Shown: positions 1,733 to 64,000 of the stretch, in pieces
How the letters are laid out: every line of letters starts with the position of its first letter
Numbering within the stretch: position 1 is the first letter of the stretch
From: Escherichia coli
GTDB lineage: Bacteria > Pseudomonadota > Gammaproteobacteria > Enterobacterales > Enterobacteriaceae
Direction: 5' to 3' (one strand)
Length of the DNA: 64,000 bases
NCBI RefSeq assembly: GCF_044647545.1
Contig: NZ_CP172818.1
Program-made: the position numbers and the translations under genes
Notes under the pieces: generated by a model
What the model was told of the DNA's origin: nothing
Databases searched by the model: none
What the model saw: the letters and a program-made list of their open reading frames with translations, nothing else

Positions 1733-1798
1733 TGCCAGACGCGTCTTCAGAATAAGTCGGATAAGGCATTTACGCCGCATCCGAGCTTTATTCCAGTT

Positions 1799-6293: not shown

Positions 6294-8555
6294 ATGACAA
6301 TTCTTAATCACACCCTCGGTTTCCCTCGCGTTGGCCTGCGTCGCGAGCTGAAAAAAGCGCAAGAGAGTTATTGGGCGGGGAACTCCACGCGTGAAGAACT
6401 GCTGGCGGTAGGGCGTGAACTGCGTGCTCGTCACTGGGATCAACAAAAGCAAGCAGGTATCGACCTGCTGCCGGTGGGTGATTTTGCCTGGTACGATCAT
6501 GTCCTGACCACCAGCCTGCTGCTGGGTAACGTTCCGGCGCGTCACCAGAACAAAGATGGTTCGGTAGATATCGACACCCTGTTCCGTATTGGTCGTGGAC
6601 GTGCGCCGACTGGCGAACCTGCGGCGGCGGCGGAAATGACCAAATGGTTTAACACCAACTATCACTACATGGTGCCGGAGTTCGTTAAAGGCCAACAGTT
6701 CAAACTGACCTGGACGCAGCTGCTGGAGGAAGTGGACGAGGCGCTGGCGCTGGGCCACAAGGTGAAACCTGTGCTGCTGGGGCCGGTTACCTGGCTGTGG
6801 CTGGGTAAAGTGAAAGGTGAACAGTTTGATCGCCTGAGCCTGCTGAACGACATTCTGCCGGTTTATCAGCAAGTGCTGGCAGAACTGGCAAAACGCGGCA
6901 TCGAGTGGGTACAGATCGACGAACCCGCGCTGGTACTGGAACTACCGCAGGCGTGGCTGGACGCCTATAAACCCGCTTACGACGCGCTCCAGGGGCAGGT
7001 GAAACTGCTGCTGACTACTTATTTTGAAGGCGTAACACCAAATCTCGACACGATTACTGCGCTGCCTGTTCAGGGGCTGCATGTGGACCTTGTACATGGT
7101 AAAGATGACGTTGCTGAACTGCACAAGCGCCTGCCTTCTGACTGGCTACTGTCTGTGGGTCTGATCAATGGTCGTAACGTCTGGCGCGCCGATCTTACCG
7201 AGAAATATGCGCAAATTAAGGACATTGTCGGCAAACGTGATTTGTGGGTGGCATCTTCCTGCTCACTGCTGCACAGCCCCATCGACCTGAGCGTGGAAAC
7301 GCGTCTTGATGCAGAAGTGAAAAGCTGGTTTGCCTTCGCCCTACAAAAATGCCATGAACTGGCACTGCTGCGCGATGCGCTGAACAGTGGTGATACGGCG
7401 GCTCTGGCAGAGTGGAGCGCTCCGATTCAGGCGCGTCGTCACTCTACTCGTGTACATAATCCGGCAGTAGAAAAGCGTCTGGCGGCGATCACCGCTCAGG
7501 ACAGTCAGCGTGCGAATGTCTATGAAGTGCGTGCTGAAGCCCAGCGTGCGCGTTTTAAACTGCCCGCGTGGCCGACCACCACGATTGGTTCCTTCCCGCA
7601 AACTACGGAGATTCGTACCCTGCGTCTGGATTTTAAAAAGGGTAATCTCGACGCCAATAACTACCGCACGGGCATTGCGGAACATATCAAGCAGGCCATT
7701 GTTGAGCAGGAACGTTTGGGACTGGATGTGCTGGTACATGGCGAGGCCGAGCGTAATGACATGGTGGAATACTTTGGCGAGCATCTGGATGGCTTTGTCT
7801 TTACGCAAAACGGTTGGGTACAGAGCTACGGTTCCCGCTGCGTGAAGCCACCGATTGTTATTGGTGACGTTAGCCGCCCGGCACCGATTACTGTGGAGTG
7901 GGCAAAATATGCGCAATCCCTGACTGATAAACCGGTGAAAGGGATGTTGACCGGCCCGGTGACTATTCTCTGCTGGTCGTTCCCGCGTGAAGATGTCAGC
8001 CGTGAAACCATCGCCAAACAAATTGCGCTGGCGCTGCGTGATGAAGTGGCCGATCTGGAAGCCGCTGGAATTGGCATCATCCAGATTGACGAACCGGCTC
8101 TGCGCGAAGGTTTACCGCTGCGTCGCAGCGACTGGGATGTGTATCTCCAGTGGGGCGTAGAGGCCTTCCGTATCAACGCCGCCGTGGCGAAAGATGACAC
8201 ACAAATCCACACTCACATGTGTTATTGCGAGTTCAACGACATCATGGATTCCATTGCGGCGCTGGACGCAGACGTCATCACCATCGAAACCTCGCGTTCC
8301 GACATGGAGTTGCTGGAGTCGTTTGAAGAGTTTGATTATCCAAATGAAATCGGTCCTGGCGTCTATGACATTCACTCGCCAAACGTACCGAGCGTGGAAT
8401 GGATTGAAGCCTTGCTGAAGAAAGCGGCAAAACGCATTCCGGCAGAGCGTCTGTGGGTCAACCCGGACTGTGGCCTGAAAACGCGCGGCTGGCCAGAAAC
8501 CCGCGCGGCACTGGCGAACATGGTGCAGGCGGCGCAGAATTTGCGTCGGGGGTAA
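6294..8555 (+). CDS. metE: cobalamin-independent methionine synthase, 753 aa
   Basis: 753-aa ORF beginning [14 protein letters not shown]; canonical MetE. Confidence 0.96.
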
Positions 8556-8595
8556 ATCCCAAACTGGGTGGCAAACACCACCCGGTCTTTTCTCA

Positions 8596-9411
8596 TTACA
8601 GCGACTTCTTCCCACCATACTGTGTAAACCATTCCAACATTCGCTGCCAGCCGTCTTTCGCAGACTCGGCATGATAGCTCGGACGATAATCGGCGTTGAA
8701 CGCATGCCCGGCATCCGGGTAGACGATAATCTCTGCTTTCGCGTTTGCTGCCCGCAGCGCCTGGCGCATCGTTTCAACGCTCTCCTGCGGAATGCTGTTA
8801 TCCTGGCCGCCATATAAGCCGATAACCGGCGCGTTAAGATCGGTTGCGATATCAACAGGCTGTTTCGGTGAATTCAGCGTCTTATCGCCGGTTAATTTGC
8901 CGTACCATGCCACCGCTGCTTTCAGTTGTGGATTATGCGCAGCATACAGCCAGGTGATGCGCCCACCCCAGCAAAATCCGGTGATCATTAAGCGATGAAC
9001 ATCGCCGCCGTTGCGTGACGCCCAACTGGCGACATGATCGAGATCGGCCAGCACCTGCGAGTCAGGCACTTTTGCTACCAGACCGCTAAGCAGCGTAGGG
9101 ATATCGGCAAAATCATTCGGATCGCCTTCGCGGAAGTAAAGTTCAGGTGCGATAGCCAGATACCCCTCCAGCGCCAGACGGCGACAAATATCGCGGATAT
9201 GTTCATGCACGCCAAAAATTTCCTGCACTACAATGACCACTGGCAGTGGGCCATCGCTTTGCTTTGGTCTGGCATGGTAAGCAGGCATGTTATCCCCTTG
9301 TGAAGGGATAGAGGTGAAGCCCGCCACAATCGCGTCGTCCGGAGTCTGAACGATGGTCGAAGCGAGAGGCGATGCAGCAGGTGCAAATCCAGATTGTTGT
9401 GTTGTTGCCAT
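8596..9411 (-). CDS. ysgA: dienelactone hydrolase family protein, about 271 aa (start chosen at internal Met; track ORF extends to 9477)
   Basis: Alpha/beta hydrolase-like ORF convergent with metE; start position uncertain. Confidence 0.8.
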
Positions 9412-9672: not shown

Positions 9673-10515
9673 ATGTCCAAGTCTGATGTTTTTCATCTCG
9701 GCCTCACTAAAAACGATTTACAAGGGGCTACGCTTGCCATCGTCCCTGGCGACCCGGATCGTGTGGAAAAGATCGCCGCGCTGATGGATAAGCCGGTTAA
9801 GCTGGCATCTCATCGCGAATTCACCACCTGGCGTGCAGAGCTGGATGGTAAACCTGTTATCGTCTGCTCTACCGGTATCGGCGGCCCGTCTACCTCTATT
9901 GCTGTTGAAGAGCTGGCACAGCTGGGCATTCGCACCTTCCTGCGTATCGGTACAACGGGCGCTATTCAGCCGCATATTAATGTGGGTGATGTCCTGGTTA
10001 CCACGGCGTCTGTTCGTCTGGACGGCGCGAGCCTGCACTTCGCACCGCTGGAATTCCCGGCTGTCGCTGATTTCGAATGTACGACTGCGCTGGTTGAAGC
10101 GGCGAAGTCAATTGGTGCCACCACTCACGTTGGTGTGACGGCTTCTTCTGATACCTTCTACCCGGGTCAGGAACGTTACGATACTTACTCTGGTCGCGTA
10201 GTTCGTCACTTTAAAGGTTCTATGGAAGAGTGGCAGGCGATGGGCGTAATGAACTATGAAATGGAATCTGCAACCCTGCTGACCATGTGTGCAAGTCAGG
10301 GCCTGCGTGCCGGTATGGTAGCGGGGGTTATCGTTAACCGCACCCAGCAAGAGATCCCGAATGCTGAGACGATGAAACAAACCGAAAGCCATGCGGTGAA
10401 AATCGTGGTGGAAGCGGCGCGTCGTCTGCTGAAATTCTCTTTCTCCTGTCAGCCCTGGGTGAAGGCATCCCATCTTCATCTCCAGGATGCATTCACCGAA
10501 ATCGAATCGGGATAA
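9673..10515 (+). CDS. udp: uridine phosphorylase with a 27-codon C-terminal read-through; the expected stop position 10432-10434 reads AAA
   Basis: Translation matches Udp through ..VEAARRLL, then continues [27 protein letters not shown] to TAA at 10513-10515. Confidence 0.88.
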
Positions 10516-11690
10516 AACATCAAATAACTCCCCTCATAAATCTGGAAATCTAATTTTTTTTCAACTACTGCCCATTTCGCATTTGCCGGTAACCTATCAC
10601 ATGCATACCCTGATGGATCGCGTTTTCAGGCCGGTTCCATCGACACACCTGAATTTTTTCTCTTCGCCACGCATCACTTCGGCATTTCACCTTCTTTAAT
10701 CACCCAGCATGATTCAGCATTTCTCTCTGTGATAACACGTCAACTGCTTCGCCAGACCCTCGAATGACCGCAAGGTAAATAACTGCTGTTGCCACCCTTC
10801 GCACTCCGACATCCGCAAGCCATACCGCATGGGTTTTCGACCATCCCGCAGACACGTAAAACGTATCTGGAAACTCCTCACGTTTCTCCTGGAGGTAATT
10901 TCATGATCCCCAGAATTCACGTTTTTCTTTGATCTTGATTCGCCAAAACGCCATGCCCGAACGATGACTTCCCCATCCAGGATTAAATCTAAGTTCTGCA
11001 TTATCTTTCCTTTAATCATTTTATTTATCTTTCGGACGTCTTACCCCACCCATTCACGGATATCTCTTCTGCACAGGATTTGACGAAGTGCCACTTCAAC
11101 CCCACGACATATACTGTACTCGACAGAAATACCGCCACAATTTCATCCCGCTTGTAAACCCTCAACGCAACGGATATCGGCTCTTTCCTTCCAATCAAAA
11201 CAAAACCACTCCAAACGACGCATGTTCTAATAAAGCGCCCATTTTGTTTCATCACCACAGGCTTTACCGCCACTTTCTTCTTTCGTTAGATCAATCCTCC
11301 GATCCGTGATTCCATCATCGATCCTCTGACGCATTTCCACCCCCTGACTTTGATCTTCTCCAGATACAGCACTTCTCGCCTTCAACGATCCCCAGATGCA
11401 CGGTTCCAGTTAACCAACGTTCAAAACCGCAATTTTACACGAGTCTTTCCATCTCTCACTGAATCGATCATTTCACCCATTTACCCTCGTGACACGCAGT
11501 AACTTTTCCACAAACTGACTAAACATGTTTCTCCTCGTCCTGAACTCCCGATAATTTTAGTCACACGTTATAAACACATTAAGAACCGCCATCCACGTAA
11601 TAACGTTTCCGCCTCGTGTTGAAGAGGTTTCTCCCACTCACTTCTCTATGATATTCTGAATTTCCACATAATGACGTGGGGAAAAAGTGA
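10516..11690 (+). other. ORF-poor, G-depleted tract (top strand roughly 12-13% G, about 30% C) between udp and rmuC; origin and function unknown
   Basis: Hand counts on two 100-120 nt samples; only short ORFs (70-101 aa) on either strand, none resembling a known protein. Confidence 0.6.
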
Positions 11691-11696
11691 TATATC

Positions 11697-11725
11697 CCAC
11701 AATATAAACCCATCTCATATTGTGG
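11697..11725. promoter_or_regulatory. inverted repeat ccacaatat-N11-atattgtgg about 120 bp upstream of rmuC; candidate operator
   Basis: Perfect 9-bp arms read directly from the sequence. Confidence 0.35.
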
Positions 11726-11842
11726 ATAAATAATGAAAATTAACATTTTTGCGTAGCGCCTCGCAGGAAACTTCTTTCAAACTGGACGTTTGTACAGCAC
11801 AATTCTATTTTGTGCGGGTAAGTTGTTGCGTCAGGAGGCGTT

Positions 11843-13270
11843 GTGGATTTCTCAATCATGGTTTACGCAGTTATTGCATTGGTGGGTGTGGCAATTGGCT
11901 GGCTGTTTGCCAGTTATCAACATGCGCAGCAAAAAGCCGAGCAATTAGCTGAACGTGAAGAGATGGTCGCGGAGTTAAGCGCGGCAAAACAACAAATTAC
12001 TCAAAGCGAGCACTGGCGCGCTGAGTGCGAGTTACTCAATAACGAAGTGCGCAGCCTGCAAAGTATTAACACCTCTCTGGAGGCCGATCTGCGTGAAGTA
12101 ACCACGCGGATGGAAGCTGCACAGCAACATGCTGACGATAAAATTCGCCAGATGATTAACAGCGAGCAGCGCCTCAGTGAGCAGTTTGAAAACCTCGCCA
12201 ACCGTATTTTTGAGCACAGCAATCGCCGGGTTGATGAGCAAAACCGTCAGAGCCTGAACAGCCTGTTGTCGCCGCTACGTGAACAACTGGACGGTTTCCG
12301 CCGTCAGGTCCAGGACAGCTTTGGTAAAGAAGCCCAAGAACGTCATACCCTGACTCACGAAATCCGCAACCTCCAGCAACTCAACGCCCAGATGGCCCAG
12401 GAAGCGATCAACCTGACGCGTGCGCTGAAAGGCGACAATAAAACCCAGGGCAACTGGGGCGAGGTAGTATTGACGCGGGTGCTGGAGGCTTCCGGTCTGC
12501 GTGAAGGGTATGAATATGAAACCCAGGTCAGCATCGAAAATGACGCCCGCTCGCGGATGCAGCCGGATGTCATCGTGCGGTTGCCGCAGGGAAAAGATGT
12601 GGTGATCGACGCCAAAATGACGCTGGTCGCCTATGAACGCTATTTCAACGCTGAAGATGACTACACACGTGAAAGCGCGCTACAGGAGCATATCGCGTCG
12701 GTGCGTAACCACATCCGCTTGCTTGGACGCAAAGATTATCAACAGTTGCCGGGGCTGCGAACCCTGGATTACGTGCTGATGTTTATCCCCGTTGAGCCAG
12801 CATTTTTATTGGCACTGGATCGCCAGCCGGAGCTGATCACCGAAGCGTTGAAAAACAATATCATGCTGGTTAGCCCGACTACGCTGCTGGTGGCGCTGCG
12901 CACTATCGCCAACCTGTGGCGTTATGAGCATCAAAGCCGCAACGCCCAGCAAATCGCCGATCGTGCCAGCAAGCTGTACGACAAGATGCGTTTGTTCATC
13001 GATGACATGTCCGCGATTGGTCAAAGTCTCGACAAAGCGCAGGATAACTATCGCCAGGCAATGAAAAAACTCTCTTCAGGTCGCGGAAATGTGCTGGCGC
13101 AGGCAGAAGCGTTTCGCGGTTTAGGGGTAGAAATTAAACGCGAGATTAATCCGGATTTGGCTGAACAGGCGGTGAGCCAGGATGAAGAGTATCGACTTCG
13201 GTCGGTTCCGGAGCAACCGAATGATGAAGCTTATCAACGCGATGATGAATATAATCAGCAGTCGCGCTAG
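11843..13270 (+). CDS. rmuC: DNA recombination protein RmuC, 475 aa
   Basis: 475-aa ORF with GTG start after RBS aggagg; N-terminal TM segment, coiled-coil, C-terminal RmuC nuclease-like domain. Confidence 0.92.
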   Translation: MDFSIMVYAVIALVGVAIGWLFASYQHAQQKAEQLAEREEMVAELSAAKQQITQSEHWRAECELLNNEVRSLQSINTSLEADLREVTTRMEAAQQHADDKIRQMINSEQRLSEQFENLANRIFEHSNRRVDEQNRQSLNSLLSPLREQLDGFRRQVQDSFGKEAQERHTLTHEIRNLQQLNAQMAQEAINLTRALKGDNKTQGNWGEVVLTRVLEASGLREGYEYETQVSIENDARSRMQPDVIVRLPQGKDVVIDAKMTLVAYERYFNAEDDYTRESALQEHIASVRNHIRLLGRKDYQQLPGLRTLDYVLMFIPVEPAFLLALDRQPELITEALKNNIMLVSPTTLLVALRTIANLWRYEHQSRNAQQIADRASKLYDKMRLFIDDMSAIGQSLDKAQDNYRQAMKKLSSGRGNVLAQAEAFRGLGVEIKREINPDLAEQAVSQDEEYRLRSVPEQPNDEAYQRDDEYNQQSR

Positions 13271-34831: not shown

Positions 34832-34939
34832 TGCCTGGCGGCCTTAGCGCGGTGGTCCCACCTGACCCCATGCCGAACTCAGAAGTGAAACGCCGTAGCG
34901 CCGATGGTAGTGTGGGGTCTCCCCATGCGAGAGTAGGGA
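34832..34939 (+). rRNA. rrfA: 5S ribosomal RNA, first 108 of 120 nt only; 3' terminal 12 nt (actgccaggcat) replaced by unrelated sequence
   Basis: tgcctggcggcc..ccccatgcgagagtaggga matches 5S, then continues ccacctttttgcg instead of actgccaggcat. Confidence 0.85.
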
Positions 34940-34968
34940 CCACCTTTTTGCGTTGGTGCGGAATAAAT

Positions 34969-50558: not shown

Positions 50559-50583
50559 GAAGTTTCCCGAACAACTTCAACTA

Positions 50584-54206: not shown

Positions 54207-54239
54207 AAAAAACCTGCCATCGCTGGCAGGTTTTTTTTT
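54207..54239 (+). terminator. intrinsic terminator downstream of typA
   Basis: aaaaaacctgccatcgctggcaggttttttttt. Confidence 0.85.
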
Positions 54240-54405
54240 GCCTGTCGTGAGCGCACACCAATGCGAGTATCTCCCTTATAAGTCTGTGGTTACGTCAATA
54301 GAGAGCTTTGTCACAATTATCTGCAAAGTCATACGCCGTTAATTGCTTTCTTTTTTGGCGTAAGCGTAAGATGCTTCATCTGGTTTAAACCAAAAGGATT
54401 AAACA

Positions 54406-55115
54406 ATGGCGGAGAATCAATCCACCGTAGAAAATGCAAAAGAGAAACTGGATCGGTGGTTGAAAGATGGCATCACCACGCCGGGTGGAAAACTCCCTTC
54501 AGAAAGAGAGCTGGGAGAACTGCTGGGCATTAAACGTATGACGCTGCGCCAGGCGTTGTTGAACCTCGAGGCAGAATCCAAAATCTTCCGTAAGGATTGT
54601 AGGGGTGGTTCGTGACCCAGCCGCGATTTAATTACAGTCCGGAGCTGTCAGCGAGCTTTCAGCGGGCCGCAATTGAGCAAGGACGAGAGCCTTCCTGGGG
54701 GTTTACCGAGAAAAACCGTACCAGCGATATTCCCGAGACGCTCGCGCCACTGATCGCAGTGACACCATCAACTGAACTCTATCGCATCACCGGCTGGGGG
54801 GCGCTGGAAGGACATAAAGTTTTCTATCACGAAACATATATTAATCCTGAAGTTGCTCCGGGCTTTATTGAACAACTTGAAAACCACTCATTTTCTGCAG
54901 TCTGGGAAAAGTGCTACCAAAAAGAGACGGTAGTAAAAAAATTGATTTTCAAACCCGTCAGAATGCCGGGCGATATCAGCAAGTATCTTGGCGGTTCTGC
55001 GGGTATGCCAGCGATCTTAATTGAAAAGCATCGCGCCGACCAGCAAGGCAATATTGTCCAAATAGATATTGAATATTGGCGATTTGAGGCCGTAGACCTC
55101 ATCATTAATCTGTAG
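54406..55115 (+). pseudogene. yihL: GntR-family transcriptional regulator YihL, interrupted by a frameshift near 54590-54615 (ORFs 54406..54615, 69 aa, and 54612..55115, 167 aa)
   Basis: Two adjacent ORFs in different frames overlapping at gtga; together 236 aa, matching the remembered YihL length (N-terminal HTH plus C-terminal UTRA-like domain). Confidence 0.7.
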
Positions 55116-55122
55116 GTGTTTT

Positions 55123-56103
55123 ATGGTGACAATAAATAACGCAAGAAAGATTCTACAACGTGTCGACACTCTTCCTCTTTATTTACATGCTTATGCCTTT
55201 CATTTAAATATGCGGCTGGAAAGAGTGTTGCCTGCTGATTTACTTGATATCGCAAGTGAAAATAATCTACGTGGCGTCAAAATCCATGTTCTCGATGGCG
55301 AGCGTTTTTCTCTTGGTAATATGGACGATAAAGAACTCTCTGCCTTTGGGGATAAAGCCCGCCGTCTGAACCTTGATATTCATATTGAAACCAGCGCCTC
55401 AGATAAGGCATCTATTGACGAAGCCGTCGCCATCGCGTTGAAAACTGGGGCATCGTCCGTACGTTTTTATCCACGTTATGAAGGTAATTTGCGCGACGTA
55501 TTATCGATTATCGCTAACGACATTGCCTATGTACGGGAAACGTATCAGGACAGCGGCCTGACTTTTACGATCGAGCAGCATGAAGATTTAAAAAGTCATG
55601 AGCTGGTGTCGCTGGTCAAAGAAAGTGAGATGGAATCTCTTTCCTTACTGTTTGATTTTGCGAACATGATCAATGCAAATGAGCATCCCATCGACGCTTT
55701 AAAAACGATGGCACCGCATATTACCCAGGTCCATATCAAAGATGCCTTGATCGTTAAAGAACCGGGTGGCCTGGGTCATAAAGCCTGTATTTCAGGTCAG
55801 GGTGATATGCCGTTCAAAGCGTTATTAACGCACCTTATCTGCCTGGGTGATGATGAGCCGCAGGTGACGGCATATGGCCTGGAAGAAGAGGTTGATTACT
55901 ATGCGCCGGCGTTCCGCTTTGAAGACGAAGATGATAATCCGTGGATCCCTTATCGCCAGATGAGTGAAACACCATTGCCAGAAAATCATTTACTGGATGC
56001 GCGGTTACGTAAAGAAAAAGAAGATGCAATTAATCAGATAAATCATGTGCGTAACGTACTACAACAAATCAAACAAGAGGCAAACCATCTTCTGAACCAC
56101 TAA
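55123..56103 (+). CDS. yihM: xylose-isomerase-like TIM-barrel (sugar phosphate isomerase/epimerase family) protein YihM, 326 aa
   Basis: 326-aa ORF in conserved position. Confidence 0.85.
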   Translation: MVTINNARKILQRVDTLPLYLHAYAFHLNMRLERVLPADLLDIASENNLRGVKIHVLDGERFSLGNMDDKELSAFGDKARRLNLDIHIETSASDKASIDEAVAIALKTGASSVRFYPRYEGNLRDVLSIIANDIAYVRETYQDSGLTFTIEQHEDLKSHELVSLVKESEMESLSLLFDFANMINANEHPIDALKTMAPHITQVHIKDALIVKEPGGLGHKACISGQGDMPFKALLTHLICLGDDEPQVTAYGLEEEVDYYAPAFRFEDEDDNPWIPYRQMSETPLPENHLLDARLRKEKEDAINQINHVRNVLQQIKQEANHLLNH

Positions 56104-56204
56104 TAAGTTTTAACTCATACGCAGTTAATAAAACCATTCCATATGAATGGTCGGTATCTTATTGCCTTTAAAACAGTGATTTTAAAAATCGCTTAGGGGA
56201 TGTT

Positions 56205-57470
56205 ATGCTCACGAAAAAGAAATGGGCGTTATTTAGTCTATTAACACTGTGTGGCGGTACAATTTATAAATTACCGTCGCTGAAAGATGCGTTTTATATC
56301 CCGATGCAGGAATATTTCCATTTGACCAATGGTCAAATTGGTAATGCTATGTCGGTAAACTCATTTGTCACCACAGTGGGCTTTTTTCTGTCTATTTATT
56401 TTGCCGATAAACTACCGCGCAGATACACCATGTCATTCTCACTCATTGCGACAGGATTACTGGGTGTTTATTTGACGACAATGCCGGGGTATTGGGGCAT
56501 CCTCTTTGTCTGGGCGCTATTTGGCGTTACTTGCGACATGATGAACTGGCCGGTCTTGCTCAAGTCGGTAAGTCGATTGGGCAATAGCGAACAACAAGGT
56601 CGGTTGTTTGGCTTCTTCGAAACAGGGCGTGGCATTGTCGATACCGTGGTGGCATTTTCTGCGTTGGCAGTATTTACCTGGTTTGGCAGTGGCTTATTAG
56701 GTTTTAAAGCAGGCATCTGGTTCTATTCCCTTATTGTGATTGCCGTAGGCATTATTATTTTCTTTGTCCTGAATGACAAAGAAGAGGCACCGTCCGTTGA
56801 GGTGAAAAAAGAAGACGGAGCATCGAAAAACACCAGTATGACCTCGGTGCTGAAAGACAAAACTATCTGGCTTATCGCTTTTAACGTCTTCTTCGTTTAC
56901 GCGGTTTACTGTGGCCTGACATTCTTCATTCCATTCCTGAAAAACATCTATCTATTGCCCGTTGCGCTGGTGGGGGCTTACGGCATCATTAACCAATACT
57001 GTCTGAAAATGATTGGTGGACCGATTGGTGGCATGATTTCAGATAAGATCCTGAAATCGCCAAGTAAATATCTATGCTACACCTTTATCATTAGTACCGC
57101 TGCGCTCGTACTGTTGATTATGCTGCCGCACGAAAGTATGCCGGTCTATTTAGGGATGGCATGTACGCTGGGCTTTGGCGCGATAGTCTTTACACAGCGA
57201 GCCGTATTTTTTGCACCTATCGGCGAAGCAAAAATTGCTGAAAATAAAACAGGTGCGGCGATGGCGTTGGGTAGCTTTATTGGTTACGCTCCGGCGATGT
57301 TCTGCTTCAGTCTGTATGGCTACATTCTGGATTTAAATCCGGGGATTATTGGCTACAAAATCGTGTTTGGCATTATGGCCTGCTTCGCATTCAGTGGTGC
57401 GGTGGTTTCCGTAATGCTGGTTAAGCGTATTAGCCAACGTAAGAAAGAGATGCTGGCGGCTGAAGCTTAA
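56205..57470 (+). CDS. yihN: MFS-family transporter YihN, 421 aa
   Basis: 421-aa polytopic membrane ORF. Confidence 0.88.
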   Translation: MLTKKKWALFSLLTLCGGTIYKLPSLKDAFYIPMQEYFHLTNGQIGNAMSVNSFVTTVGFFLSIYFADKLPRRYTMSFSLIATGLLGVYLTTMPGYWGILFVWALFGVTCDMMNWPVLLKSVSRLGNSEQQGRLFGFFETGRGIVDTVVAFSALAVFTWFGSGLLGFKAGIWFYSLIVIAVGIIIFFVLNDKEEAPSVEVKKEDGASKNTSMTSVLKDKTIWLIAFNVFFVYAVYCGLTFFIPFLKNIYLLPVALVGAYGIINQYCLKMIGGPIGGMISDKILKSPSKYLCYTFIISTAALVLLIMLPHESMPVYLGMACTLGFGAIVFTQRAVFFAPIGEAKIAENKTGAAMALGSFIGYAPAMFCFSLYGYILDLNPGIIGYKIVFGIMACFAFSGAVVSVMLVKRISQRKKEMLAAEA

Positions 57471-57476
57471 TTAATG

Positions 57477-57560
<84 letters not shown>

Positions 57561-63236: not shown

Positions 63237-63589
63237 AAATAATCTCCATAGAGTATAAAGCTAATATTTCATGCCATCCTGTTGTTACAGGTTTCATTAA
63301 TTAAAGATTGTGTGCTATAAATAAAACCCCATAAGTGATATATAAAAACTTTTTCAGCCCGGCGGATTGCCGCCATTTTTAACCAAAAATGCCAGTTACA
63401 ATAATAACTAACAATAAACGGAGCAGAATCCAGCCGGGAATTCCCATCCCTTTTATCAACATAGAACCGGAGGCAATCAGCAACAAAAAGACCATCACAC
63501 GGAACACTTTGACTGAAAGCGTTTATGCACATATCTCCAACAAGCGAACCGAGAATCAGGAAAACAAAAAACACCAGTTAAAAAAAGAA

Positions 63590-63950
63590 ACATCAAAATC
63601 CCCCCCCCCCGCCCCCCCCGCCCCCCTTTTTGGGGAAAAAAAGGGTCCGAGGCCCCGAATCCCCCGGGCCCAATTCCAGCATACCTACACCCCCGCCCCG
63701 CCCCCCGCCCCGCTCGCCGCTACTCGCCGATACGCCGCGACCATAACGTCAAAACGACAGACAAGAAATAAACATAAAAAAAAAAAAAAAGAAAAGGATC
63801 CCCCTACCCATTAAAAACGTACATACAAACACACAAACAAACAACAAAAAAAAAAATAACGCCCCCCCAACACAAAAAAAAAAACCCCAACAAAAAGAAA
63901 AAAAAAAAAAAAAAAAAAAAAAACACCCCCCAAAAAAAAAAAAAACATAA
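63590..63950. repeat. low-complexity, homopolymer-rich (poly-C, poly-A) sequence; probable assembly or read-end artefact
   Basis: Runs such as c11, a25, ccccgcccc repeats and acaaacaaaca, atypical of E. coli. Confidence 0.8.
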
Positions 63951-64000
63951 TATTTCCTGTTGTGTAAATACAACCCTAAACAATGATCTCGTTCTTTTCT

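What the first reader, a model, noticed from the sequence alone, without database searches (positions are those of the whole stretch)
11697..11725. Perfect 9-bp inverted repeat upstream of rmuC
ccacaatat-N11-atattgtgg lies about 120 bp upstream of the rmuC start, at the right edge of the G-poor tract. It could be an operator for a dimeric regulator or part of the native rmuC promoter region.
Basis: seen in the sequence. Interest (0 to 1): 0.25.

Follow-up and report, generated by a model that had tools for sequence, protein, structure and literature searches.

The report
Damaged operator of a lost regulator
The 9-bp inverted repeat is real, but it is a shortened copy of a 13-bp palindrome that most likely binds the regulator of a neighbouring sugar-acid gene island, not rmuC, and in this window that island is garbled, so the site is an ordinary leftover.

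Summary
A 9-bp repeat alone is weak evidence, since the window has 17 such repeats against about 5 expected by chance.

It is not part of the udp-rmuC spacer shared by all E. coli. It lies in an accessory island found in about 27% of complete genomes. The island encodes an IclR-family regulator, a 2-keto-3-deoxygalactonate kinase, an aldolase and a TctCBA transporter, all transcribed away from rmuC.

In intact islands the repeat is TATCCCACAATAT-N12-ATATTGTGGGATA, centred 79.5 bp upstream of the regulator gene. Its arms are invariant in three Escherichia species. The same TCCCA...TGGGA half-box sits in promoter regions of orthologous regulators in Klebsiella, Vitiosangium and Bifidobacterium. 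I read it as that regulator's operator (inferred, not shown).

rmuC's own control region, a LexA-type box and a likely promoter at 11782-11811, lies in the segment conserved in all E. coli.

In this window the island (10453-11746) has lost about half its G's, so the regulator gene is destroyed and the repeat is shortened. Three other corrupted patches point to a sequence-quality artefact.

Interest is low.

The parts
11697..11705 (.). Left arm of the inverted repeat (CCACAATAT). This is the arm nearer the regulator gene. It is a truncated form of TATCCCACAATAT.
   Evidence: comparison with intact islands.
11706..11716 (.). Spacer (AAACCCATCTC, 11 nt). It is 12 nt (AAACTCCATCTC) in intact islands and varies between Escherichia species.
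11717..11725 (.). Right arm (ATATTGTGG). It is a truncated form of ATATTGTGGGATA, with one G of GGG missing.
11686..11701 (.). CRP-like site AGTGA-TATATC-CCACA overlapping the left arm. GTGA and CACA are conserved while the middle 6 nt vary in Escherichia species and Klebsiella.
   Evidence: Read from the alignment and compared with the TGTGA-N6-TCACA consensus from my own knowledge. Not scored with a matrix.
11021..11637 (-). Wrecked remnant of the IclR-family regulator gene (768 nt when intact). The start codon and reading frame are destroyed by G losses.
   Evidence: no matching ORF; domains of the intact protein.
10453..11001 (-). Wrecked remnant of the 5' two-thirds of the 2-keto-3-deoxygalactonate kinase gene. 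The rest of the island (aldolase, tctC, tctB, tctA) is absent.
10453..11746 (+). G-depleted tract. It is the island sequence with 223 of 436 plus-strand G's deleted, and it contains the repeat.
11782..11797 (+). LexA-type box CTGGACGTTTGTACAG (CTG-N10-CAG), 45 bp before the rmuC GTG. This is the expected SOS operator of rmuC.
   Evidence: Sequence; conserved in all E. coli and Klebsiella; literature PMC6590174 and PMC8072944.
11783..11811 (+). Inferred rmuC promoter: TGGACG, 17 nt, TATTTT. It overlaps the LexA-type box.
   Evidence: My own reading. It falls below the scan's threshold, so it is inference only.
11843..13270 (+). Intact rmuC coding sequence (475 aa, GTG start).

Best explanation
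The repeat is a damaged copy of the operator of an uncharacterised IclR-family regulator (WP_000852398.1 in intact strains). In about 27% of E. coli, a six-gene operon lies between udp and rmuC and is transcribed away from rmuC. It encodes the regulator, a DgoK-type 2-keto-3-deoxygalactonate kinase, a KDPGal aldolase and a TctCBA transporter. The intact site is a 38-bp dyad, TATCCCACAATAT-N12-ATATTGTGGGATA, in the 216-bp regulator/rmuC intergenic region. Its centre is 79.5 bp upstream of the regulator's ATG.

Inferred mechanism: the regulator binds the two arms, as a dimer or a dimer of dimers as IclR-family proteins do. This represses its own operon, probably by covering the overlapping CRP-like site and promoter, until a sugar-acid effector releases it.

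What is shown here: the location, the dyad symmetry, the co-occurrence with the regulator gene, and the conservation of the half-box next to orthologous regulators. What is inferred: binding, the direction of regulation, the effector, and the position of the promoter.

In this window the regulator gene is destroyed. The site has 9-bp arms and an 11-nt spacer because the whole island sequence has lost G's. As written, it is therefore an orphan, weakened site. It has nothing to do with rmuC's own LexA-controlled promoter.
For: 1. Context. BLAST places the repeat in island-specific DNA. 1,455-1,456 of 5,426 complete genomes carry both the island and the repeat. The rest match only from 11745 onward. 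Annotation of BLR(DE3) and ST648 shows the regulator gene ending 60 bp from the dyad.
2. The regulator has HTH_IclR and IclR_C domains above Pfam thresholds. Its best solved relatives are IclR, KdgR and TtgV.
3. The intact dyad has 13-bp perfect arms. It is the only occurrence of the 11-mer in 15 kb of the ST648 locus.
4. Footprint. The arms TCCCACAATAT and ATATTGTGGGA are identical in E. coli, E. whittamii and Escherichia sp. E1V33, while the spacer and immediate flanks differ.
5. The half-box travels with the regulator. An exact ATATTGTGGGA lies inside TCCCATATTGTGGGA, 88 nt upstream of a 50%-identical regulator that heads a dgoK-dgoA-dehydratase operon in Vitiosangium. TCCCATATATAGGGA lies 108 nt upstream of the Klebsiella spallanzanii orthologue. 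TCCCACATATAGGGA lies about 65 nt upstream of a dehydratase-aldolase-IclR operon in Bifidobacterium. TCCCACA cores lie upstream of the orthologues in uncultured Proteobacteria genomes. Hits with up to 2 mismatches are about 13 times denser in the 300 nt upstream of the regulators than elsewhere in the loci.
6. Reverse test. Of 27 metagenome contigs holding the exact dyad, 23 are of the E. coli type. In 22 of these the regulator gene flanks the dyad, as does rmuC wherever the contig reaches that far. The 23rd, L042, is a likely chimera.
7. A TCCCA-N5-TGGGA box has the same 15-bp layout as the classical IclR box (my own knowledge of the family).
Against: No binding or expression data exist. Literature searches for the half-site and for the gene cluster found nothing specific.

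The Escherichia site (TCCCA-N24-TGGGA) is spaced differently from the compact 15-bp box of the other genera. The half-box similarity could therefore overstate equivalence.

The Citrobacter amalonaticus orthologue (62% identity) shows no comparable site.

The intergenic region is well conserved overall within Escherichia, so the footprint contrast is modest. No convincing sigma-70 promoter for the operon was found.

A CRP-like site overlaps one arm and could account for part of the conservation. In the window itself the cognate regulator is absent and the site is degraded.
Confidence: 0.6

Rival explanations
1. One reading: the repeat is an operator or promoter element controlling rmuC.
For: It lies 118 bp upstream of the rmuC start in a divergent intergenic region. 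A regulator bound there could in principle affect both directions. A weak plus-strand promoter-like match (ATGATA-16-CATAAT, L002 12888-12915) sits just upstream of the dyad in intact islands and would transcribe through it toward rmuC.
Against: 73% of E. coli genomes lack the repeat yet keep an identical rmuC-proximal region. That region holds a LexA-type box 45 bp from the start and a plausible promoter, matching the known SOS control of rmuC/yigN. The plus-strand promoter match is at chance level (1 found, 0.6 expected). It is also lost in the window (0 found).
Confidence: 0.07
2. The conserved element is mainly a CRP site (AGTGA-N6-CCACA, 11686-11701) for catabolite control of the sugar-acid operon. 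The longer dyad would then be incidental.
For: GTGA and CACA are conserved while the six middle bases differ between E. coli, E. whittamii, E1V33 and both Klebsiella species. Sugar-acid operons are commonly CRP-dependent (my own knowledge).
Against: A CRP site explains only one arm. The distal arm has no TGTGA partner. The perfect 11-13-bp symmetry and the recurrence of the half-box in Vitiosangium and Bifidobacterium are not explained by enterobacterial CRP. The site's position relative to any recognisable -10 element is not canonical (my own reading). This view is compatible with the main explanation, as overlapping sites, rather than exclusive of it.
Confidence: 0.1
3. The repeat acts as an RNA hairpin, for example a 5'-UTR stabiliser or attenuator of the regulator operon mRNA.
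For: The predicted hairpin is stable. For the intact site the minus strand folds at -20.3 kcal/mol (z = -5.4) and the plus strand at -16.1 kcal/mol (z = -4.5). For the window copy the values are -13.1 and -9.3 kcal/mol.
Against: No U-run follows on either strand, and the terminator scan does not call it. No Rfam family matches above noise. There are no compensatory changes, because the arms are simply invariant. In other genera the element becomes a 15-bp box too short for a meaningful hairpin. No transcription start site upstream of it is known.
Confidence: 0.08
4. It is a chance or neutral palindrome with no function, or a terminal repeat or attachment site marking the island's edge.
For: A 9-bp repeat is expected about 5 times per window by chance. 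The site lies 20-50 bp from the island's right boundary. Exact copies of the dyad also occur as unrelated hairpins in AT-rich environmental contigs (L027, L029, L049, L050).
Against: The intact 13-bp dyad is expected about 0.02 times per window (my own calculation from 4^-13). The arms are invariant across three species while their neighbours change. No second copy lies at the island's other end, and no integrase or transposase is present.
Confidence: 0.1

Closest known systems
IclR-family operators: the 15-bp IclR box TGGAAATNATTTCCA, KdgR, PcaU/PcaR and AllR sites, and the 42-bp TtgV operator bound by a tetramer
   Same: The site has dyad symmetry and lies in the regulator's own promoter or divergent intergenic region. 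The adjacent gene has HTH_IclR and IclR_C domains. Orthologues in other genera carry a 15-bp TCCCA-N5-TGGGA box with the same layout as the IclR box. The long 38-bp Escherichia site is comparable in size to the TtgV operator (my own knowledge; TtgV is a PDB relative).
   Different: The half-site sequence (TCCCACA...) is unlike any characterised IclR-family box I know. The Escherichia version has its halves pushed apart (N24 between TCCCA and TGGGA). No binding has been shown. In this window the regulator gene is destroyed.
Predicted IclR-family regulator clustered with dgoK and a TTT-family transporter for D-galactonate use (Salinivirga fredricksonii HL-109; PMC5507952)
   Same: The gene-cluster logic is the same: an IclR-type transcription factor, dgoK and a tripartite tricarboxylate-type transporter, assigned by genome context to sugar-acid (galactonate) catabolism (island content).
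   Different: That case is also only a comparative-genomics prediction. I did not compare its motif. The E. coli island has dgoA but no dehydratase, so its substrate may be the 2-keto-3-deoxy acid itself.
LexA (SOS) box of rmuC/yigN
   Same: This is the operator actually expected upstream of rmuC. The window has CTG-N10-CAG at 11782-11797, 45 bp from the start, matching the 44 bp reported for Salmonella yigN.
   Different: It is a different element, 57 bp downstream of the repeat. The repeat itself does not fit CTG-N10-CAG.

Membership tests
IclR-family autoregulatory operator | The neighbouring gene encodes a protein with an IclR-type HTH domain and an IclR C-terminal effector domain. | tested here: met
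   The intact-island protein (L002 12108-12875, minus strand) scores 36.2 bits for HTH_IclR and 130.8 bits for IclR_C, both above Pfam cut-offs. In the window itself the gene is only a frameshifted remnant at 11021-11637.
IclR-family autoregulatory operator | A dyad-symmetric site lies in the regulator's own upstream or divergent intergenic region. | tested here: met
   Intact islands have 13-bp perfect arms and a 12-nt spacer, centred 79.5 bp upstream of the regulator ATG. The window has 9-bp arms and an 11-nt spacer.
IclR-family autoregulatory operator | The half-site is conserved next to orthologous regulators in other taxa. | tested here: met
   The arms are identical in three Escherichia species. 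TCCCA-N5-(T/G)GGGA boxes lie in promoter regions of orthologues in Klebsiella, Vitiosangium and Bifidobacterium. No such box was seen in Citrobacter amalonaticus.
IclR-family autoregulatory operator | The regulator binds the site directly and is released by an effector. | not testable with these tools
   This needs EMSA, footprinting or ChIP, plus reporter assays.
LexA (SOS) box | CTG-N10-CAG (consensus TACTGTATATATATACAGTA) close to the promoter of a damage-inducible gene. | tested here: not met
   The repeat at 11697-11725 has no CTG-N10-CAG. The box that fits is at 11782-11797, in the universally conserved segment.
CRP site | TGTGA-N6-TCACA at a canonical distance from a promoter. | tested here: inconclusive
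   AGTGA-TATATC-CCACA at 11686-11701 matches 8 of 10 core bases, and GTGA and CACA are conserved across genera. No promoter is mapped, and no weight matrix or binding data were available.
Intrinsic terminator | A G+C-rich hairpin followed by a U-run. | tested here: not met
   The terminator scans do not call the repeat in the window or in the intact locus. The stem is A+T-rich and no T-run follows.
Known structured RNA (Rfam) | A match at or above a family's gathering score. | tested here: not met
   The only hits were two chance hairpin matches at 18.7 and 20.3 bits, against cut-offs of 69 and 67. Nothing was found in the window tract.
Terminal inverted repeat or attachment site of a mobile island | A matching repeat at the other island end, plus a recombinase. 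| tested here: not met
   The 11-mer occurs only at the dyad in the 15-kb ST648 locus. The island encodes no integrase or transposase.

The most novel reading that the evidence does not exclude
The G-depleted tract that contains the repeat could be real DNA rather than a sequence error. The same would apply to the second garbled tract over the tauE-like gene. That would imply an unknown process that removes about half the G's from one strand in a context-dependent way (AGT 16/16 lost, CGA 1/19 lost), with no codon-position effect. It would have hit only accessory, minus-strand genes in an otherwise ST648-identical chromosome. The repeat would then be the relic operator of an island inactivated by that process. 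I could not exclude this because I have no reads for the source genome. However, the window also lacks the 3' end of a 5S rRNA. The tauE tract decays into poly-A and poly-C. No other genome or metagenome contig shows either tract.
Probability: 0.03. Interest if true: 0.85.

Novelty: new member of a known kind. Interest (0 to 1): 0.15.

Why it matters
The finding matters little for rmuC, because its SOS-type control region is intact and conventional. The useful by-product is a testable operator prediction for an uncharacterised IclR-type regulator. The core is TCCCA...TGGGA, and the Escherichia form is TCCCACAATAT-N12-ATATTGTGGGA. This regulator belongs to a sugar-acid island carried by many pathogenic and laboratory E. 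coli, including BL21/BLR, Nissle 1917 and ST648. Related boxes occur in Klebsiella, myxobacteria and bifidobacteria. The second practical point is a warning. This window contains several locally corrupted stretches, so features read from 10453-11746 and 63316-63957 should not be taken at face value.

Tried and rejected
1. I looked for the window-type tract elsewhere and found nothing. None of 5,426 complete E. coli genomes has it. An exact 37-mer scan of metagenome contigs returned no hit. The read-through Udp protein is not on record.

2. L006 (E. coli SCPM-O-B-8794) looked like a possible source. It is a generally error-ridden assembly, only 91% identical to the window over rmuC, so it is not the source.

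3. I asked whether the K-12-type spacer descends from the G-depleted tract. The window's left junction, AAATTCTCTTTCTCCTGTC, resembles K-12's TAATTCTCTTCTCCTGTC, and both share ATTTTTGCG at the right edge. An alignment tolerant of G deletions found the K-12 spacer no more similar to the intact island than shuffled controls were. I dropped the descent idea. The junction is better read as K-12-type spacer joined to island sequence.

4. Literature searches for the half-site and for the gene cluster gave nothing specific. Searches for DgoR with IclR gave only one comparative-genomics precedent.

5. L042 has the dyad next to a different gene. Its left 816 bp occur in no E. coli genome, so it is probably a chimeric contig.

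6. I tried to place a sigma-70 promoter for the regulator operon by eye and by scan. No convincing -35/-10 pair was found.

7. Terminator, Rfam RNA and island-end repeat readings were all rejected.

Full report
**Observation**

The repeat is exactly as described. CCACAATAT lies at 11697-11705, followed by 11 nt, then ATATTGTGG at 11717-11725. The right arm ends 118 bp before the rmuC GTG at 11843. On its own this is weak evidence. The window contains 17 distinct perfect inverted repeats of at least 9 bp with spacers of 0-20 nt, against a mean of 5.3 in first-order Markov simulations.

**Where it lies**

udp ends near 10432 and rmuC starts at 11843. In K-12-type E. coli the spacer between them is about 140 bp (L003). 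Here it is about 1.4 kb.

BLAST against 5,426 complete E. coli genomes shows that 10424-11745 corresponds to an accessory island carried by about 1,455 genomes. In BLR(DE3) and ST648 the island is a minus-strand operon. It runs from an IclR-family regulator through a 2-dehydro-3-deoxygalactonokinase, a KDPGal aldolase and TctC, TctB and TctA, ending next to udp.

Island-less genomes match the window only from about 11745 onward. The repeat is therefore island DNA. It is not part of the rmuC upstream region common to the species.

**The intact form**

In intact islands the element is TATCCCACAATAT-N12-ATATTGTGGGATA. It has 13-bp perfect arms (L002 12936-12973). Its centre is 79.5 bp upstream of the regulator's ATG and 137.5 bp upstream of the rmuC GTG. 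The window copy has lost one G from the right arm and one T from the spacer.

**Evidence that it is the regulator's operator**

- The regulator is a genuine IclR-family protein.
- The 11-mer occurs nowhere else in 15 kb of the ST648 locus.
- The arms TCCCACAATAT and ATATTGTGGGA are invariant in E. coli, E. whittamii and Escherichia sp. E1V33, while the spacer and the bases just outside the arms change.
- More distant orthologues carry a compact box with the same ends in their promoter regions.
  - K. spallanzanii has TCCCATATATAGGGA at -108.
  - Vitiosangium has TCCCATATTGTGGGA at -88, ahead of a regulator-dgoK-aldolase-dehydratase operon. This box includes an exact copy of the E. coli 11-mer.
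  - Bifidobacterium has TCCCACATATAGGGA about 65 nt ahead of a dehydratase-aldolase-regulator operon.
  - Orthologues in uncultured Proteobacteria genomes have TCCCACA cores.
- In a reverse search, 23 of 27 metagenome contigs with the exact dyad are of the E. coli type. In 22 of these the regulator gene flanks the dyad, as does rmuC wherever the contig reaches that far. The 23rd, L042, is a likely chimera, and the other four are unrelated AT-rich hairpins.

This is the usual signature of a transcription-factor site that travels with its factor. A 15-bp TCCCA-N5-TGGGA layout is what IclR-family boxes look like (my own knowledge). Binding, the direction of regulation and the effector are all inferred.

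**What controls rmuC**

The segment 11747-11842 is identical in island-bearing and island-less E. coli and nearly so in Klebsiella. It contains CTGGACGTTTGTACAG (CTG-N10-CAG) at 11782-11797, 45 bp from the start. This overlaps a plausible TGGACG-17-TATTTT promoter, which is my own reading.

rmuC/yigN is listed in the E. coli LexA regulon (PMC6590174). Salmonella yigN has one SOS box 44 bp from its ATG and is induced 19-fold by nalidixic acid (PMC8072944).

**Other readings**

- A CRP-like site (AGTGA-TATATC-CCACA, 11686-11701) overlaps the left arm. Its GTGA and CACA are conserved across genera while the middle varies. It probably coexists with the operator, which suggests the repressor competes with CRP. 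This is inference.
- An RNA-hairpin role has only thermodynamic support. There is no covariation, no terminator features and no Rfam match.
- An island-end repeat is excluded by the lack of a partner repeat or a recombinase.

**State of the site in this window**

The tract 10453-11746 is the island sequence with 223 of 436 plus-strand G's deleted. It also has 46 other deletions and about 20 substitutions. The flanks are identical to ST648.

The loss depends strongly on sequence context. It is 16/16 at AGT, 20/24 at AGC and 33/44 at TGC, but 1/19 at CGA and 4/24 at TGA. It does not depend on codon position. The regulator and kinase genes are destroyed and the rest of the island is missing.

No other genome, metagenome contig or protein record has this tract.

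**Other corrupted patches in the window**

- The tauE-like gene at about 63316-63957 starts with G deletions and decays into poly-C and poly-A. It returns to perfect sequence at the start codon.
- The last bases of a 5S rRNA and its terminator are replaced by CCACC at 34939-34945, which breaks helix I.
- A hairpin between glnL and glnA is replaced by CGA at 50567-50571.

Elsewhere the window is 99.94-100% identical to ST648-type genomes. Yet it lacks or garbles every ST648 accessory insert.

I conclude that the G-poor tract is most likely a sequence-quality or reconstruction artefact of unknown origin. The 9-bp/N11 form of the repeat would then be part of that damage. I cannot prove this without the reads.

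**Verdict**

The operator idea is right in kind but is assigned to the wrong gene. The "native rmuC promoter" idea is not supported. The element is a new, unvalidated member of a well-known class, IclR-family operators, and it is seen here in a damaged copy. Interest is low.

Noticed in passing
window 10453-11746: A G-depleted tract. It is the udp-rmuC accessory island sequence with about 51% of plus-strand G's deleted, in a strongly context-dependent way (AGT 16/16 lost, CGA 1/19 lost) and with no codon-position effect. It is unique among 5,426 complete genomes. It is probably a sequence artefact.
   Followed up: partly
window 63316-63957: A second corrupted tract covering the accessory TauE/SafE gene between yihQ and yihR. 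It shows G deletions first, then T-to-C and G-to-A changes, then poly-C and poly-A smear, and returns abruptly to perfect sequence at the gene's start codon.
   Followed up: partly
window 34939-34945: The 3' end of a 5S rRNA and the rrn terminator hairpin (49 bp in ST648) are replaced by CCACC. The Rfam alignment shows helix I broken. This is biologically implausible for a working rRNA gene.
   Followed up: yes
window 50567-50571: A 37-bp stretch containing a G+C-rich hairpin between glnL and glnA (present in ST648) is replaced by CGA.
   Followed up: no
window 10424-10515: The udp stop codon is lost (CTGCTGAAATTCTCT...), giving a 280-aa read-through ORF. The junction is a hybrid of the island-type udp end (CTGCTGAAAT) and the K-12-type spacer (TCTCTT(T)CTCCTGTC).
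   Followed up: partly
window 1733-1782, 8552-8603, 54237-57550: The window is 99.94-100% identical to ST648-type genomes but has K-12-like gene content at every accessory site. There is no Rpn-family gene between the two LysE-family genes. There is no 8.5-kb island between metE and ysgA. yihLMN (99.8% identical to K-12) stands in place of the STM4011-4015 cluster. This is an odd mosaic for a natural strain.
   Followed up: partly
window 11782-11815: A LexA-type box (11782-11797) is followed by a second small dyad, GCACAA-N7-TTGTGC (11797-11815). The dyad spans the likely -10 of rmuC, is conserved in Klebsiella, and extends to 10-bp arms in K. indica.
   Followed up: partly
L042 (metagenome contig OGXH01036577.1) 1-816: The intact dyad and the regulator's 5' leader are joined to an unrelated periplasmic-binding-protein gene found in no complete E. 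coli genome. This is probably a chimeric contig.
   Followed up: partly
L006 (E. coli SCPM-O-B-8794, NZ_JAATUR010000057.1): A GTDB species-representative E. coli assembly with errors throughout (91% identity to the window over rmuC, with many gaps). It seems to stand apart as a species only because of its quality.
   Followed up: no
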